The notes below the pieces were generated by a model, which saw only the letters and a list, made by a program, of their open reading frames with translations, was not told where the DNA came from and ran no database searches. This document shows positions 540 through 59,784 of a DNA stretch of 64,000 nt, one piece after another. The position numbers were made by a program, and so were the translations under genes. The stretch is from Escherichia coli (lineage in GTDB: Bacteria > Pseudomonadota > Gammaproteobacteria > Enterobacterales > Enterobacteriaceae). Position 1 is the first letter of the stretch, and each line of letters starts with the position of its first letter. The stretch is from NCBI RefSeq assembly GCF_003019035.1, contig NZ_CP027447.1; one strand, written 5' to 3'.

Positions 540-775
540 GTCGCCAATCCTGGAAAGAGTATTAAGCGTAAATGATGCCAGAGCGCAAAGCGTTCAATGG
601 TTTGAGTAAGGGGCAAAACAGGCGGGATTTAGGGCGTTTATGCAAAAAATAGGTTCAGTTGCAGAACGTTTTGCGAACCATTTTCCAGTTCTGAGATTTA
701 GCCATTTAGCCTATAGAATCGCCCACCGCCTCTCTGTTAGTTTGCTAATAATTAAATTATTACAAAGGCGATCAA

Positions 776-2284
776 ATGGAATGGCAACAATTGCTTAACT
801 GCAACCGTCGGAAAGATAATCTAAAAAAAACCAGCATAGAATTTTTACATCCCCTTGCTAGCGGAAGACAAGAGATCGAGCGGGATTACGACCGATTACT
901 TTTTGCTGCGCCAACTCGTCGGCTTGCGGATAAAACACAAGTTTTCCCGTTAGATCAAAATGACAGTATACGGACGAGGCTGACTCATTCTCACGAAGTA
1001 GCAAACTTTGCTCGCGGAATAGGAATGAGACTCGCTTTCGAGATGAAGGAACACATCTTTGGCGAAATACCCACGGGGATTGTCGTTGAACGCGACGTTC
1101 CTGCTCTGTTAGCAGCGATCGGACTGGCACACGATCTCGGTAATCCACCATTTGGGCATCAAGGTGAAGCAGCGATGCGCGCATGGTTTAATAAAAATCT
1201 TCCAGGCCTTCTTGATAAAGAAGTAAACAGCGAAATATATAACGACTTTCTGCAATTTGATGGAAACTCACAAACCCTGCGCCTGGTTACCAAATTACAA
1301 ATTATTAACGATAACTTTGGTCTGAATCTGACCTATGCCACGCTGGCTGCACTGATCAAATATCCCCGAGCTTCATATTCATCGGACAAACATTGGAAAA
1401 AGCACGGTTTTTTCTATTCTGAGCATGAGGTTGTCATGGATGTCTGGCAACAAACGGGCCTTGGCGTACCAGGTAATGATGCCGGTTGCCGCCACCCATT
1501 TACCTGGATAATGGAAGCTTGCGACGATATTGCCTACTCTGTGCTGGACGCAGAAGATACCATCAAGAAAGGATTTGCCTCATACCAGGATTTGCGTGAT
1601 TTTTTGATGTCACAATCCGAGCCGAACGATGTAATTCAACATGTTATTGAAGCTGTAGAGGCCAAAAATGACGCCTGGAAAGAGCAAAGAAATGCACTTT
1701 CACCGGCGGAAATTAATGAACTCAGTATGCAAATGTTCAGAGTTTATGCCACCAGTGCATTGATTAATGCCGTAGTAGAAGCCTTTCGCGAACAATTACC
1801 CACGCTGATGCAGCGTGACTGCCCGTTCAAAGATTTAATCTCGCAAAGCAAAGGTCACGCTCTCTGCACTGCCCTGAAAATGTTCGACCGAACACGAGGC
1901 TACTTTCATCGTTCAGTCTTGCAACTGGAACTTAGGGGATCTAATTACATTACTAACTTGATGGATATGCTCTGGATTGGCATCCATGGACACAAAACAA
2001 AGAAAGAACGAGACGGAGAACGCGAGTCCGCGTCTACAGATAACCTTTTTGTTTCTCGTGAAGAATACCTGTCGGATACTCCCTTTGGTCGCTATGCTTA
2101 CGGGACAATCTCTGAAAATTATCGCCGTGTGTTTGAAGATCCCGCCAATACACTCCCTATTCTTTATAAAGAAGCGCAGTTGCTTACCGACGCAATCTCA
2201 GGCATGACGGATAGTTATTTAATGCGCCTTCACGATGAGCTAAAATCACTGTATGAATGTGGTCTCAAACACCCAACAGCTTGA
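776..2284 (+). CDS. Dgt-family HD-domain deoxynucleoside triphosphate triphosphohydrolase homologue (dGTPase-like), accessory copy
   Basis: 502-aa ORF with AAGG RBS about 9 nt upstream; motifs TRLTHSHEV, LAHDLGNPPFGH, TWIMEACDDIAYSVLDAED and C-terminal ISGMTDSY align with E. coli Dgt motifs as I recall them; local GC about 35-42%. Confidence 0.8.
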   Translation: MEWQQLLNCNRRKDNLKKTSIEFLHPLASGRQEIERDYDRLLFAAPTRRLADKTQVFPLDQNDSIRTRLTHSHEVANFARGIGMRLAFEMKEHIFGEIPTGIVVERDVPALLAAIGLAHDLGNPPFGHQGEAAMRAWFNKNLPGLLDKEVNSEIYNDFLQFDGNSQTLRLVTKLQIINDNFGLNLTYATLAALIKYPRASYSSDKHWKKHGFFYSEHEVVMDVWQQTGLGVPGNDAGCRHPFTWIMEACDDIAYSVLDAEDTIKKGFASYQDLRDFLMSQSEPNDVIQHVIEAVEAKNDAWKEQRNALSPAEINELSMQMFRVYATSALINAVVEAFREQLPTLMQRDCPFKDLISQSKGHALCTALKMFDRTRGYFHRSVLQLELRGSNYITNLMDMLWIGIHGHKTKKERDGERESASTDNLFVSREEYLSDTPFGRYAYGTISENYRRVFEDPANTLPILYKEAQLLTDAISGMTDSYLMRLHDELKSLYECGLKHPTA

Positions 2285-3005
2285 ACAGCGTATCGCCGAT
2301 TTTTTTACGCTTAGTGATGAGCATAAGAAAGCCAGAGTATTACTTGATACTCTGGCCTGTTCCTGTCCGGCCTGGATTTTTGGCGGGATGGTGCGTGACT
2401 TAGGCTTGTTTGGCGTCGAGGGATTCTCTTCAGACCTTGATATCGTCATCGGTCGCTCCCGTGAGGAACTCTTCCGGACATTGGCTGAACTGCCCGTCAA
2501 ACAACTGCGTTTTAATAAGTTCGGTGGGATCCGTTTTCGTTATCACGACTTCGAATTTGATATCTGGAACCTCAATGAGACATGGGCATTTCGGGAAAAA
2601 CTTATATTTTGTGAGGATGAATCAAGTCTGTTAAACACTACGCTGATGAGTTGGGATGCCGTGCTCTATGATCTACGTAGTGAAAAAATTATCAGTAAAG
2701 ATAATTATTTGACCGACTTAAATCGCAGACATCTTGAACTTGTTCTTCATACTAACCCCAATCCAAGCGGTTCGGTAACGAAAATTTTACGCACTATTTT
2801 TACTAAGCAGGTAAAGAGTTTAGGTCCGGAACTCTGTCATTTCTTGCACCATGAACTGACGAAAAAACGTTATGAAGTTTGGCATCATTACGATGTACTG
2901 CACTACCAGTCATCGTCATTTTCTCGTTCACAATTTAATGCGTTGATAAATTTACTGGCGCAACAATCACGCTTCGCTGATCTAAAATTATCAAATTACA
3001 AATAA
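2253..3005 (+). CDS. Pol-beta superfamily nucleotidyltransferase-like protein (tRNA-NT/poly(A) polymerase head-like motif), unknown function
   Basis: 250-aa ORF overlapping the upstream gene by 32 nt; motif WIFGGMVRDLGLFGVEGFSSDLDIVIG resembles the GGxVRD...DxD head motif of CCA-adding enzymes and PcnB; the rest has no recognisable body/tail domain. Confidence 0.65.
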   Translation: MNVVSNTQQLEQRIADFFTLSDEHKKARVLLDTLACSCPAWIFGGMVRDLGLFGVEGFSSDLDIVIGRSREELFRTLAELPVKQLRFNKFGGIRFRYHDFEFDIWNLNETWAFREKLIFCEDESSLLNTTLMSWDAVLYDLRSEKIISKDNYLTDLNRRHLELVLHTNPNPSGSVTKILRTIFTKQVKSLGPELCHFLHHELTKKRYEVWHHYDVLHYQSSSFSRSQFNALINLLAQQSRFADLKLSNYK

Positions 3006-3049
3006 CCATCCTCCACATACTTCCTGAACGATACCCGCCCCCCTGCTAT

Positions 3050-3074
3050 CGGCCTGGCATCATCGCGCAGGCCG
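3050..3074. other. 7-bp inverted repeat hairpin (CGGCCTG-N11-CAGGCCG) between the cassette 3' end and the cheZ stop
   Basis: Perfect inverted repeat read in sequence; no flanking T-run on either strand, so not a canonical intrinsic terminator. Confidence 0.3.
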
Positions 3075-3092
3075 AAGTTAAGGCAATACAAA

Positions 3093-6082: not shown

Positions 6083-7684
6083 TCAGGATACCACTGGCGC
6101 AATTTGTAACTGCGCCGACTCATGTCGTGCTACTTCATGCTCTTCAAGGGTAAATACCGCCACGCGCGACGAAAGATGGTCGGCCTGATTCGCCAGTTGT
6201 TCTGTTGCCACCGCCGCTTCTTCTACCAGGGAGGCGTTCTGCTGTGTCACCTGATCCATCTGGCTGACAGCCTGTGCAACCTGCTCAATCCCCCGCCGTT
6301 GTTCTTCCGAGGCCGAAGCAATTTCTCCCATAATGTCGTTCACGCGGGTCACCGAACTGACAATATCAGTCATGGTCGCGGCGGCGTTATTCACCAGTTT
6401 CGAACCCTGCTGGACACGATTGACTGACTCTTCGATCAGCCCTTTGATCTCTTTTGCTGCCTGGGCGCTACGGCTGGCAAGATTGCGCACTTCACCTGCC
6501 ACTACCGCAAAACCACGCCCCTGCTCTCCGGCGCGAGCCGCTTCCACTGCCGCATTCAGGGCCAGAATATTGGTCTGGAAAGCAATGCCGTCGATAACGC
6601 TGATAATGTCGCCAATTTTTTGCGAGCTGGTGGCGATCTCCTGCATGGTGTGAGTCATGGTACTGACCTGAACACCGCCCGCCTGTGCCGTTGTCGCGGC
6701 ATTTTTTGCCAGTTCCGACGCCTGGCGCGCGTTATCGGCGTTTTGCCCTACCGTGGCGGTTAATTGCTCCATACTGGCGGCCGTTTGTGCCAGCGATGCC
6801 GCCTGCTGTTCGGTACGACTTGAGAGATCGTTATTGCCTGCGACAATCTCCGCGATACCAATGTGCATCTCCTGGCTTCCCTTACGCACATCACTTACCG
6901 TCCCACGCAAAGCCTGCTGCATGGTCTTCAGACTGGCAAAAATGGCGGTGATCTCATTGCGACCATACACCGCAATCGGACGCGCCAGATTACCCGCAGC
7001 AATGCTGTCAAAATGGCTACCGATAATGGCCAGTGGTTGAACAATCATCTTGCGCGTCCACCACAGCGCACTGCTGATGTAGATCGCCGCAACAATAATC
7101 ATGCTGATAAACACCAGCGCCGAAATCTGATAGTTACGCTGGCTTTGCGCACTGGCAGCTTCCAGCACATGGTTGATCTCCAGCTGCCAGGCCTCAAAGT
7201 TAACGTCAAACGCATTCTGTGATTCCTGCACCGGCGCAGTGAGGAAATCCGAAAGTTGATTACTTTCAAGCCAGGTCGCCTGATGTTCGAGATCGTTGTG
7301 CCAGCGGGCAAAACTTTTCTCCGTCTCTTTTTGCAACGCCCTGACGTGCTCGTTGCCCGCAGTCATCGCCATAAAACTTTTAAACAGCGTGGTGGATTGC
7401 GTCAGACTGGCGCGCGCCGTCGTCATCAACGTTTTAATGTCATCCGCCGGATAGCTAAGCGCCGTCAGAGTGCCCGCTTTGTTCAGCGCGGTACTGGCCT
7501 GTAACATTACCGCCCGAGTTTGCGCTAAAGCCGCACGTTGCTGATTGCTCTGCTCGACCTGATTCAGTCGTTGCACATCGTCGCGAAATGCCCAAAAAGA
7601 CATGCCGTTACTGCCAATCTGCAAGATCCCGCAGAGAATCAAAATTAAAAACAGCGTGGTCGAAATTCGAATACGATTAAACAT
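6083..7684 (-). CDS. tap: Methyl-accepting chemotaxis protein IV (dipeptide/pyrimidine receptor) Tap
   Basis: ORF MFNRIRISTTLFLILILCG... with conserved MCP signalling domain; start at second Met of track ORF. Confidence 0.93.
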   Translation of the reverse strand: MFNRIRISTTLFLILILCGILQIGSNGMSFWAFRDDVQRLNQVEQSNQQRAALAQTRAVMLQASTALNKAGTLTALSYPADDIKTLMTTARASLTQSTTLFKSFMAMTAGNEHVRALQKETEKSFARWHNDLEHQATWLESNQLSDFLTAPVQESQNAFDVNFEAWQLEINHVLEAASAQSQRNYQISALVFISMIIVAAIYISSALWWTRKMIVQPLAIIGSHFDSIAAGNLARPIAVYGRNEITAIFASLKTMQQALRGTVSDVRKGSQEMHIGIAEIVAGNNDLSSRTEQQAASLAQTAASMEQLTATVGQNADNARQASELAKNAATTAQAGGVQVSTMTHTMQEIATSSQKIGDIISVIDGIAFQTNILALNAAVEAARAGEQGRGFAVVAGEVRNLASRSAQAAKEIKGLIEESVNRVQQGSKLVNNAAATMTDIVSSVTRVNDIMGEIASASEEQRRGIEQVAQAVSQMDQVTQQNASLVEEAAVATEQLANQADHLSSRVAVFTLEEHEVARHESAQLQIAPVVS

Positions 7685-9422: not shown

Positions 9423-9449
9423 TTATCGGCAAGGAAGGGGGAAACTTTA
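9423..9449 (-). promoter_or_regulatory. Sigma-28 (FliA) class 3 promoter upstream of tar
   Basis: Minus strand reads TAAAGTTT-N11-GCCGATAA, an exact match to the sigma-28 consensus. Confidence 0.7.
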
Positions 9450-9476
9450 TTGCTGATGCCACCCGCCGCGAAATTG

Positions 9477-9507
9477 AAATAAAAAACCCGATGCGCAGAT
9501 CATCGGG
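9477..9507 (-). terminator. Intrinsic terminator downstream of cheW
   Basis: Hairpin CCCGATG...CATCGGG followed by a T-run on the minus strand. Confidence 0.6.
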
Positions 9508-9535
9508 TTCATTTCAATTGAGGAAATCGGGAGAA

Positions 9536-59697: not shown

Positions 59698-59784
59698 AAA
59701 TCCCGACCCTGAGGGGGTCGGGATGAAACTTGCTTAAGCAAGAAGCACTTAAAAAATTCGTTACACCAGGAAATCTGATGTGTT
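59698..59784 (-). ncRNA. dsrA: Small regulatory RNA DsrA (rpoS activator / hns repressor)
   Basis: Reverse complement reads AACACATCAGATTTCCTGGTGTAACGAATTTTTTAAGTGCTTCTTGCTTAAGCAAGTTTCATCCCGACCCCCTCAGGGTCGGGATTT, matching the DsrA sequence as I recall it, including its terminator hairpin. Confidence 0.9.

What the first reader, a model, noticed from the sequence alone, without database searches (positions are those of the whole stretch)
776..2284. Second, divergent Dgt-family dNTP triphosphohydrolase with intact HD catalytic motifs
The 502-aa protein keeps the H...HD...D metal-binding residues (THSHEV; AHDLGNPPFGH; MEACDDIAYSVLDAED) and the C-terminal ISGMTD motif of dGTP triphosphohydrolases, but is clearly diverged from housekeeping E. 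coli Dgt, which is encoded elsewhere on the chromosome. It is therefore an accessory paralogue and probably catalytically active. Standalone Dgt-like enzymes are known to defend by depleting dGTP during infection; this one has an overlapping partner gene.
Basis: partly seen in the sequence, partly recalled or inferred. Interest (0 to 1): 0.6.

Follow-up and report, generated by a model that had tools for sequence, protein, structure and literature searches.

The report
Clover anti-phage system (CloA–CloB)
The gene is real and is the dGTP-degrading enzyme CloA of the recently published two-gene "Clover" anti-phage system, whose overlapping partner CloB makes a small nucleotide that keeps CloA switched off until a phage raises dTTP. 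It is a correct observation of something already described.

Summary
It is an accessory paralogue. It shares 29% identity with housekeeping Dgt, which is present in 5,424 of 5,426 complete E. coli genomes. With the overlapping 250-aa ORF at 2253..3005 it forms a ~2.4-kb, 44%-GC island (about 644..3080) inserted between flhB and cheZ in 106 of 5,426 genomes.

It is not a standalone dGTPase. Its best solved relatives are PDB 9P8S–9P8V, Salmonella CloA of the Clover defence system (E 3e-190, 67% identity, model TM 0.90–0.92; Yamaguchi et al., bioRxiv 2025). All 6 catalytic residues, 9 of 9 dTTP-activator contacts and 9 of 10 p3diT-inhibitor contacts are conserved.

The partner is a CloB homologue. 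It is 35% identical to Salmonella CloB (E 3e-55), and its D61/D63 align with the published catalytic D71/D73. Its confident model has a class II CCA-adding-enzyme-like nucleotidyltransferase fold.

The inferred mechanism is as follows. CloB makes pppdTpdT (p3diT), which holds CloA off. Phage-driven dTTP accumulation overrides this, and CloA then depletes dGTP.

The window's pair is an untested sister lineage of the tested Salmonella and E. coli H5 systems. It differs by a ~20-aa charged loop in CloA. Low novelty.

The parts
644..3080 (.). Accessory island (~2.44 kb, 44% GC against 50.4% for the window). It replaces an 87-bp REP-like stretch of the K-12-type flhB-cheZ intergenic region. No flanking repeats or mobility genes.
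   Evidence: BLASTN against the empty site L002: homology ends at window 643 and resumes at 3081 (alignment). Present in 106 of 5,426 genomes, always on the chromosome. Only short chance-level repeats were found.
691..719 (+). Weak sigma-70-like promoter candidate upstream of cloA (CTGAGA-17-TAGAAT). Tentative.
   Evidence: Consensus scan, 9 of 12 matches. The number of sites in the region does not exceed the shuffled expectation.
776..2284 (+). cloA: HD-domain dGTP triphosphohydrolase effector of Clover (502 aa).
   Evidence: PDB 9P8S-9P8V (Salmonella CloA) at E 3e-190. 67% identity with all catalytic and allosteric residues mapped. AF2 model against 9P8S-V gives target-normalised TM 0.90-0.92.
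1130..1135 (+). Codons for the HD motif H119-D120 (equivalent to SeCloA H117-D118). The H128/E131 dyad follows at 1157-1168.
   Evidence: Residue mapping. Invariant in 27 CloA-clade proteins.
1994..2071 (+). Lineage-specific charged insertion in the CloA C-terminal helical bundle (about residues 407-432, KTKKERDGERESASTDNLFVSREEYL). Absent from the characterised Salmonella CloA.
   Evidence: Pairwise and family alignments. Predicted partly helical (H409-421), with block-mean pLDDT about 76-86.
2253..2284 (+). 32-nt overlap of the cloA 3' end with the cloB 5' end, which suggests translational coupling.
   Evidence: Coordinates. Overlaps are also present in relatives: 47 nt in L007 and L013, 20 nt in L010, 26 nt in L012.
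2253..3005 (+). cloB: Pol-beta-superfamily nucleotidyltransferase (250 aa), inferred synthase of the inhibitory signal p3diT.
   Evidence: 35% identity, E 3e-55, full length, to the Salmonella CloB encoded next to SeCloA. Invariant GG..RD / SDxD / D..W signature. AF2 pLDDT 91.9, with best folds being class II CCA-adding enzymes and poly(A) polymerase.
2433..2441 (+). Codons for the CloB catalytic D61-L-D63. The third carboxylate D103 is at 2559-2561.
   Evidence: D61/D63 align with Salmonella CloB D71/D73, the residues mutated in the paper. Invariant in 27 CloB homologues.
3050..3074 (.). GC-rich 7-bp stem-loop (CGGCCTG-11 nt-CAGGCCG) in the 87-bp spacer between the convergent cloB and cheZ genes. 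Role unknown.
   Evidence: Read directly from the sequence. Not scored as an intrinsic terminator.

Best explanation
Window 776..3005 encodes a Clover anti-phage defence system. CloA (776..2284) is a dGTP-specific triphosphohydrolase. CloB (2253..3005), translated from an overlapping frame, joins two dTTP molecules into pppdTpdT (p3diT). p3diT binds at the CloA dimer interface and keeps the enzyme off in uninfected cells. When a phage such as a T5-like phage, which carries its own Dmp and NrdAB enzymes, drives dTTP up, dTTP occupies an adjacent and mutually exclusive pocket. This orders the alpha3-alpha4 loop, completes the active site, and CloA then destroys dGTP so that phage DNA replication stalls. 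Shown here: gene structure, homology, conservation of the catalytic and ligand-contact residues, the folds, the conserved gene pairing and the accessory distribution. Inferred from the orthologous Salmonella and E. coli H5 systems: the chemistry, the ligands and the defence phenotype.
For: CloA is closest to solved Salmonella CloA (9P8S-V, E 3e-190; PDB titles 'Structure of CloA apo / co-expressed with CloB / with dGTP and p3diT / with dGTP and dTTP', TMt 0.90-0.92). That is far closer than E. coli Dgt (1e-37) or SpdGTPase (3e-24). Residue mapping shows 6 of 6 catalytic residues conserved (H71, H119, D120, D250, H128, E131). It shows 9 of 9 dTTP-site residues conserved (R49, D63, Q175, K264, S446, N448, A473, T478, Y481). 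It shows 9 of 10 p3diT-site residues conserved (R31, R36, D39, R40, F43, N77, N184, Q319, R322), including the base-reading D39, N77 and Q319. These positions are invariant or nearly so across 27 clade members. CloB is 35% identical (E 3e-55) to the CloB next to SeCloA, with D61/D63 aligned to the published catalytic D71/D73, an invariant active-site signature and a confident NTase fold. The overlapping CloA-CloB pair is conserved in Salmonella, Atlantibacter, Pseudomonas, Vibrio and a metagenome, in several cases on integrase or defence islands. The locus is accessory (106 of 5,426 genomes) and low in GC. The mechanism and phenotypes come from PMC12265719.
Against: No experiment exists for this lineage. 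The tested E. coli H5 operon (2,200 bp) matches the other E. coli lineage (L007, 2,200 bp) rather than the window's (2,230 bp). CloB is only 35% identical to the characterised enzyme. CloA carries a ~20-aa insertion. It also lacks H263 (Q271 in the window), which stabilises the tetramer in SeCloA, and Q427 (D455 in the window), which stabilises the suppressed state. The island is flanked by flagellar and chemotaxis genes rather than other defence genes. Promoter evidence is weak.
Confidence: 0.9

Rival explanations
1. A Clover-like system with altered regulation. The divergent CloB makes a different nucleotide signal, or the charged CloA loop and changed interface residues alter the oligomeric state or add a further input, so that trigger or threshold differ from the published model.
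For: CloB is only 35% identical to Salmonella CloB. The lineage-specific insertion at residues 407-432 lies just upstream of the dTTP contacts S446 and N448. The changes H263->Q271 and Q427->D455 affect assembly and suppressed-state contacts.
Against: The base-specific p3diT contacts (D39, N77, Q319) and all dTTP contacts are conserved. The paper reports that a distant Xanthomonas CloB also makes p3diT. D at the Q427 position and Q or Y at the H263 position are common across the clade, so these are normal family variation.
Confidence: 0.06
2. A standalone, constitutively active anti-phage dGTPase of the Tal et al. 2022 type. The downstream ORF is unrelated.
For: The PADLOC dGTPase model hits at 9e-71 and has no partner model.
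Against: The NCBIfam antiphage_dGTPase model scores 183 bits against a curated cut-off of 400. SpdGTPase (9P8W) matches at only 3e-24, against 3e-190 for CloA. The partner overlaps the gene, is a CloB homologue and co-occurs across genera. The allosteric pockets are conserved.
Confidence: 0.02
3. A housekeeping-type paralogue tuning dNTP pools (or a toxin-antitoxin-like addiction pair) with no role in phage defence.
For: The locus sits among flagellar and chemotaxis genes, not in a defence island. The paper reports that CloA without CloB is highly toxic, which would favour retention of the pair.
Against: It is present in only about 2% of genomes, while dgt is universal. GC is low. Orthologues gave more than 10,000-fold protection against T5-like phages. 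Relatives sit on integrase or defence islands with type I R-M and DarTG. Addiction behaviour is compatible with defence and does not replace it.
Confidence: 0.02

Closest known systems
Clover system of Salmonella enterica SA20044414 (SeCloA/SeCloB; PDB 9P8S-9P8V; Yamaguchi et al., bioRxiv 2025, PMC12265719)
   Same: Two overlapping co-oriented genes. An HD dGTPase with identical catalytic residues, dTTP pocket (9 of 9) and p3diT pocket (9 of 10). The same fold (TMt about 0.9). The partner is a homologous NTase with aligned catalytic aspartates.
   Different: CloA is 67% identical and 31 aa longer, with a ~20-aa charged loop plus small indels. H263->Q and Q427->D. CloB is only 35% identical and 27 aa shorter. 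The genomic site differs: flhB-cheZ here, against an integrase island with a QueC/PfkB-deoxyribosyltransferase cluster there. This lineage is untested.
E. coli H5 Clover (tested in the same paper); equated here with the tRNA-Sec island lineage L007
   Same: Same species and the same system architecture. CloA orthologue (64% identity).
   Different: The H5 operon length (2,200 bp) and D71/D73 numbering fit L007 rather than the window. L007 CloA is 85% identical to SeCloA. L007 CloB is 35% identical to the window CloB. L007 is found in 8 complete genomes, against 106 for the window type. The H5-to-L007 equation is an inference, not a sequence match.
Standalone anti-phage dGTPase (Shewanella putrefaciens SpdGTPase, PDB 9P8W; Tal et al. 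2022)
   Same: HD-fold dGTPase that defends by dGTP depletion, with shared catalytic residues.
   Different: SpdGTPase has no partner gene, is constitutively active in vitro and is a hexamer. It matches the window protein at only E 3e-24. The NF041026 cut-off is not reached.
Housekeeping E. coli Dgt (PDB 4X9E, 6OIY)
   Same: The same superfamily fold (TM about 0.75), the H..HD..D metal site, and dGTP specificity in the characterised relatives.
   Different: 29% identity. Core gene at another locus. Hexamer. No CloB partner. The NF003429 equivalog cut-off is not reached (270 against 405 bits).
Negatively signalled defence systems: Hailong (oligodeoxyadenylate) and Panoptes/MISS (2'3'-c-di-AMP)
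   Same: An NTase constitutively makes a nucleotide that restrains an effector (as cited).
   Different: The effectors, signals and NTase clades are unrelated. The CloB fold is closest to class II CCA-adding enzymes and poly(A) polymerase.

Membership tests
Clover (CloA/CloB) | CloA is an HD-domain dNTPase with metal ligands H..HD..D and an HE catalytic dyad | tested here: met
   H71, H119, D120, D250, H128 and E131 align with SeCloA H69, H117, D118, D242, H126 and E129. Invariant in 27 homologues.
Clover (CloA/CloB) | CloA is closer in sequence and fold to solved CloA than to Dgt or standalone dGTPases | tested here: met
   phmmer gives 3e-190 against 1e-37 (Dgt) and 3e-24 (SpdGTPase). Foldseek's top six hits are all CloA chains, TMt 0.90-0.92.
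Clover (CloA/CloB) | Conserved dTTP activator pocket (SeCloA R47, D61, Q172, K256, S418, N420, A444, T449, Y452) | tested here: met
   9 of 9 identical.
Clover (CloA/CloB) | Conserved p3diT inhibitor pocket (SeCloA T25, R29, R34, D37, R38, F41, N75, N181, Q311, R314) | tested here: met
   9 of 10 identical. Only T25->L27 differs, and that position varies across the family.
Clover (CloA/CloB) | An adjacent co-oriented accessory NTase gene (cloB) immediately downstream of cloA | tested here: met
   2253..3005 overlaps cloA by 32 nt. The same arrangement is found in five other taxa or loci.
Clover (CloA/CloB) | CloB is homologous to the characterised p3diT synthase and carries the [D/E]h[D/E]...h[D/E]h motif | tested here: met
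   35% identity, E 3e-55, to Salmonella CloB. D61-L-D63 aligns with D71-I-D73, and F-D103-I supplies the third carboxylate.
Clover (CloA/CloB) | CloB has a Pol-beta-superfamily nucleotidyltransferase fold | tested here: met
   AF2 pLDDT 91.9. 47 PDB hits at E<=1e-3, 46 of them CCA-adding/tRNA nucleotidyltransferase or poly(A) polymerase entries (best 7.6e-9) and one FAM46C. Pfam PolyA_pol is only marginal (E 0.099).
Clover (CloA/CloB) | Octameric four-leaf-clover assembly of CloA | not testable with these tools
   Only a monomer model was made. The interface residue R46 is conserved (R48) but H263 is Q271.
Clover (CloA/CloB) | dTTP-activated dGTP hydrolysis inhibited by p3diT, p3diT synthesis by CloB, and defence against T5-like phages | not testable with these tools
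   Biochemistry and phage assays exist only for the Salmonella and E. coli H5 orthologues.
Clover (CloA/CloB) | Accessory or defence-island genomic context | tested here: inconclusive
   The locus is accessory (106 of 5,426 genomes, 44% GC) but flanked by flhB and cheZ, not defence genes. Relatives do sit on integrase or defence islands.
Standalone anti-phage dGTPase (NCBIfam NF041026; Tal et al. 2022) | Score at or above the curated whole-protein cut-off | tested here: not met
   182.9 bits against a cut-off of 400, and only the N-terminal HD region aligns. The generic PADLOC dGTPase HMM does hit (9e-71).
Housekeeping Dgt (NCBIfam NF003429 equivalog) | Score at or above the curated cut-off, and a core-genome locus | tested here: not met
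   270 bits against a cut-off of 405. 29% identity to Dgt. dgt lies elsewhere and is universal.
dGTP triphosphohydrolase subfamily (TIGR01353) | Score at or above the curated cut-off | tested here: met
   284.1 bits against a cut-off of 152.35, covering residues 31-490.

The most novel reading that the evidence does not exclude
The flhB-cheZ lineage of Clover has a CloB only 35% identical to the characterised enzyme. Its CloA has a ~20-aa highly charged, partly helical insertion next to the dTTP pocket and lacks the H263 stacking contact. It may therefore assemble differently or respond to an additional cue or threshold, which would give a different phage range from the published systems.
Probability: 0.08. 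Interest if true: 0.4.

Novelty: already known. Interest (0 to 1): 0.22.

Why it matters
This result mainly matters for annotation. RefSeq calls the pair 'dgt' plus 'hypothetical protein', and PADLOC-DB v2.0.0 would report a lone dGTPase. The locus is in fact a complete Clover system, in which a nucleotide-pool sensor (dTTP) and a self-made inhibitor (p3diT) jointly gate dGTP depletion. E. coli carries two distinct Clover lineages at different chromosomal sites. The commoner flhB-cheZ one appears not to be the one tested, so it is a ready natural variant for asking how conserved the p3diT/dTTP logic is. Nothing here changes the published picture.

Tried and rejected
- Pfam alone was uninformative: only a weak HD hit for CloA (5.8e-6) and a marginal PolyA_pol hit for CloB (0.099).
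- NCBIfam, PADLOC, PHROGs and PDB sequence searches found nothing for CloB. Its identity came from the literature, the family alignment, the structure model and direct comparison with the Salmonella neighbour gene.
- A literature search for the PDB code found nothing relevant. The paper prints the codes as 8P9S-8P9V. The link was made through the PDB entry titles and the H126A/E129A substitutions visible in 9P8U.
- I looked for mobility signatures (terminal repeats, integrase, IS) at the island borders and found none.
- I looked for RNA elements in the island and found none.
- I looked for an intrinsic terminator after cloB. None was scored; there is only a GC-rich hairpin.
- I looked for the system in phages (none) and plasmids (only distant Phaeobacter and Bacillus homologues).
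- I considered that the window system might be the tested E. coli H5 operon. I rejected this on operon length (2,230 against 2,200 bp), CloB residue numbering, and IMG membership of the other lineage.
- The paper's supplementary table of CloB homologues is not held, so I could not check whether this exact lineage is listed.

Full report
**Observation.** The window has an ATG-initiated ORF at 776..2284 (+) of 502 aa. A second ORF at 2253..3005 (+) of 250 aa overlaps it by 32 nt. An identical stretch in E. coli SCU-301 is annotated by RefSeq as 'dgt: dGTP triphosphohydrolase' (WP_096986692.1) followed by 'hypothetical protein' (WP_001103661.1). The protein passes the dGTP_triPase subfamily model (TIGR01353, 284 bits against a cut-off of 152). 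It fails the equivalog cut-offs for housekeeping Dgt (NF003429, 270 against 405) and for the standalone anti-phage dGTPase (NF041026, 183 against 400). PADLOC's generic dGTPase HMM hits at 9e-71, and nothing in PADLOC hits the partner.

**Genomic setting.**
- The flanks are flhB (− strand, start codon at 539) and cheZ-cheY-cheB-cheR-tap-tar (− strand).
- Against a K-12-type empty site, homology stops at window 643 and resumes at 3081. About 2.44 kb therefore replaces 87 bp of REP-like sequence.
- The island is 44% GC against 50.4% for the window.
- It is present in 106 of 5,426 complete E. coli genomes, always chromosomal, and at 95% identity or more in all 106 (at least 99% in about 99).
- There are no flanking repeats, integrase or IS and no Rfam family inside it.
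- Housekeeping dgt is 29% identical at the protein level and occurs in 5,424 of 5,426 genomes at its own locus next to degP.
- The 'accessory paralogue' reading is therefore correct.

**Identity of the 502-aa protein.**
- A sequence search of the PDB gives 9P8S, 9P8T, 9P8U and 9P8V ('DNTP triphosphohydrolase', 473 aa) at E about 3e-190. The next hits are Pseudomonas, Flavobacterium and Leeuwenhoekiella dGTPases (about 1e-50), then E. coli Dgt (1e-37) and 9P8W (3e-24).
- These belong to Yamaguchi et al. (bioRxiv 2025, PMC12265719), which defines the Clover system.
- In that system CloA is an octameric dGTPase that is inactive alone and is switched on specifically by dTTP, which T5-like phages raise through their Dmp and NrdAB enzymes.
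- CloB is a Pol-β-superfamily nucleotidyltransferase. It makes 5'-triphosphothymidyl-3'5'-thymidine (p3diT), which binds a neighbouring and mutually exclusive pocket at the CloA dimer interface and raises the dTTP threshold.
- Mutating CloB makes the operon toxic. Mutating the CloA HD motif abolishes defence.

**Residue-level test.** Window CloA is 67% identical to Salmonella CloA.
- All six catalytic residues are conserved: H71, H119, D120, D250, H128 and E131.
- All nine dTTP contacts are conserved: R49, D63, Q175, K264, S446, N448, A473, T478 and Y481.
- Nine of ten p3diT contacts are conserved: R31, R36, D39, R40, F43, N77, N184, Q319 and R322. Only T25→L27 differs.
- Across 27 diverse clade members the catalytic positions and most ligand-contact positions are invariant, and the rest (N75, N420, A444) vary in only a few sequences. 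T25 varies.
- The differences are H263→Q271 (a tetramer-stabilising stacking residue), Q427→D455, and a ~20-aa highly charged insertion at about residues 407-432. The insertion characterises an enterobacterial sub-lineage (Cronobacter, Enterobacter, Pseudescherichia, Cedecea) and is absent from SeCloA.
- An AF2 model (pLDDT 81) superposes on the CloA structures at TMt 0.90-0.92.
- The model's low-confidence segments at 47-69 and 174-181 coincide with the α3-α4 and α8-α9 loops that the paper identifies as the ligand-controlled switches.
- The insertion is predicted to be partly helical.

**Identity of the partner.**
- Sequence libraries were silent on it: Pfam PolyA_pol E 0.099, and no hits in NCBIfam, PADLOC, PHROGs or the PDB.
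- A homologue search found 52 relatives, those with organism names all from Enterobacterales and most unannotated or 'hypothetical protein'. They share invariant G44 G45 R48 D49, S60 D61 D63, D103 W105, T110-F113 and W134 D135.
- To obtain the characterised enzyme I located a Salmonella protein 99.4% identical to the PDB SeCloA. Its operon (L013 6001..8203) is 2,203 bp, exactly the Salmonella operon length the paper gives.
- The downstream 277-aa gene is therefore effectively SeCloB. Window CloB aligns with it end to end at 35% identity (E 3e-55), with D61/D63 opposite D71/D73, the residues mutated in the paper.
- The AF2 model of window CloB is confident (pLDDT 91.9, pTM 0.88). Its best solved neighbours are class II CCA-adding enzymes, A-adding enzymes and poly(A) polymerase (best E 7.6e-9).
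- These are template-independent 3'-end nucleotidyltransferases. That fits a reaction adding dTMP to the 3'-OH of dTTP. This last step is my inference.

**Conservation of the pair.** An HD-domain gene followed by an overlapping ~250-277-aa gene without Pfam hits is found in five other settings:
- a metagenomic relative, also next to cheZ (L003);
- Atlantibacter, among type I R-M and DarTG genes (L004/L005);
- E. coli on a tRNA-Sec integrase island (L007);
- Pseudomonas (L010);
- Vibrio harveyi (L012).

No phage record encodes a CloB. Distant homologues occur on Phaeobacter and Bacillus plasmids.

**Which lineage was tested?**
- The paper's E. coli H5 operon spans 82910-85109, which is 2,200 bp. 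The window operon is 2,230 bp. The tRNA-Sec island operon (L007 5920..8119) is exactly 2,200 bp.
- L007 CloB has D71/D73, and its proteins are held in JGI/IMG.
- L007 CloA is 85% identical to SeCloA but 64% identical to the window CloA. The two E. coli CloB proteins are 35% identical.
- I therefore infer that the window carries an untested sister lineage. It is the commoner of the two in complete E. coli genomes: 106 against 8.
- I could not check the paper's Supplementary Table 1.

**Mechanism and confidence.** The best explanation (0.9) is that this is a functional Clover system working as published.
- Shown here: anatomy, homology, residue conservation, folds, conserved pairing and accessory distribution.
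- Inferred: dGTP specificity, dTTP activation, p3diT synthesis and inhibition, and defence against T5-like phages.
- Rivals: a Clover-like system with altered signal, assembly or threshold (0.06); a standalone constitutive dGTPase with an unrelated neighbour (0.02); a non-defence pool regulator or pure addiction module (0.02).

**Verdict.** Every testable defining feature of Clover is met. The features of the standalone anti-phage dGTPase and of housekeeping Dgt were tested and not met. Novelty is low: the kind is known, and this lineage is an ordinary though individually untested member. Interest 0.22.

Noticed in passing
L007 5920-8119 (E. coli STK77-E, NZ_CP162190.1); also L013 (Salmonella) and L004/L005 (Atlantibacter): A second, distinct Clover lineage (CloA 471 aa, CloB 276-277 aa) occurs in 8 complete E. 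coli genomes. It sits on an integrase island at tRNA-Sec. Its operon length (2,200 bp) and D71/D73 numbering match the E. coli H5 system tested in the paper.
   Followed up: partly
L004 80-4259; L007 1353-5535; L013 1489-5671; L012 6325-9317: The 471-aa Clover lineage is repeatedly adjacent to the same gene cluster: a small ORF, a PfkB/nucleoside-deoxyribosyltransferase fusion, a QueC-like 7-cyano-7-deazaguanine synthase, an unknown gene, an Ogg-HhH protein and a Dam-like methylase. Part of this cluster also accompanies Clover in Vibrio harveyi. It could be a DNA-modification or defence module travelling with Clover.
   Followed up: no
L010 4001-6152 with nrdB at 6184-7434 and nrdA from 8016: In Pseudomonas the CloA-CloB pair lies directly beside the host ribonucleotide reductase genes. 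This is notable because Clover senses dTTP and phage escape mutations map to phage NrdAB.
   Followed up: no
L003 4554-6753 (JGI metagenome 3300039909): A relative of the window lineage (CloA 81%, CloB 66% identical) is also inserted right next to cheZ. Its other flank is AraC/MFS/rhamnosidase instead of flhB, which suggests the cheZ-proximal site is used in another enterobacterial species.
   Followed up: no
Protein clusters of window 2253-3005 (P0010): Shigella flexneri records hold many truncated fragments (53-160 aa) of the window-type CloB, and partial CloA fragments exist in E. coli. These are consistent with decayed copies of the island. In addition, strain E17 keeps only 29% of the island (H48), and strain CLSC36 has two 'hypothetical protein' features under the island match (H42).
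   Followed up: no
PMC12265719, data availability statement and Figure 3 legend: The preprint prints the CloA PDB codes as 8P9S-8P9V, whereas the PDB entries titled CloA are 9P8S-9P8V. One legend gives the CloB mutant as D61A/D63A where the rest of the paper says D71A/D73A.
   Followed up: yes
window 776-2284, residues 47-69 and 174-181 of the AF2 model: The only internal low-confidence segments of the CloA model, apart from the variable N-terminal segment 17-29, coincide with the two loops (alpha3-alpha4 and alpha8-alpha9) that the cryo-EM work identifies as rearranging on dTTP or p3diT binding.
   Followed up: partly
window 9439-9516 (+), 27730-28028 (-), 59698-59784 (-): Ordinary E. coli RNA genes elsewhere in the window: C0465 sRNA, a cluster of three tRNAs, and DsrA.
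   Followed up: no
window 640-798 (+): A 52-aa ORF starts at the left island junction and overlaps the cloA start. It has no support and is probably spurious.
   Followed up: no
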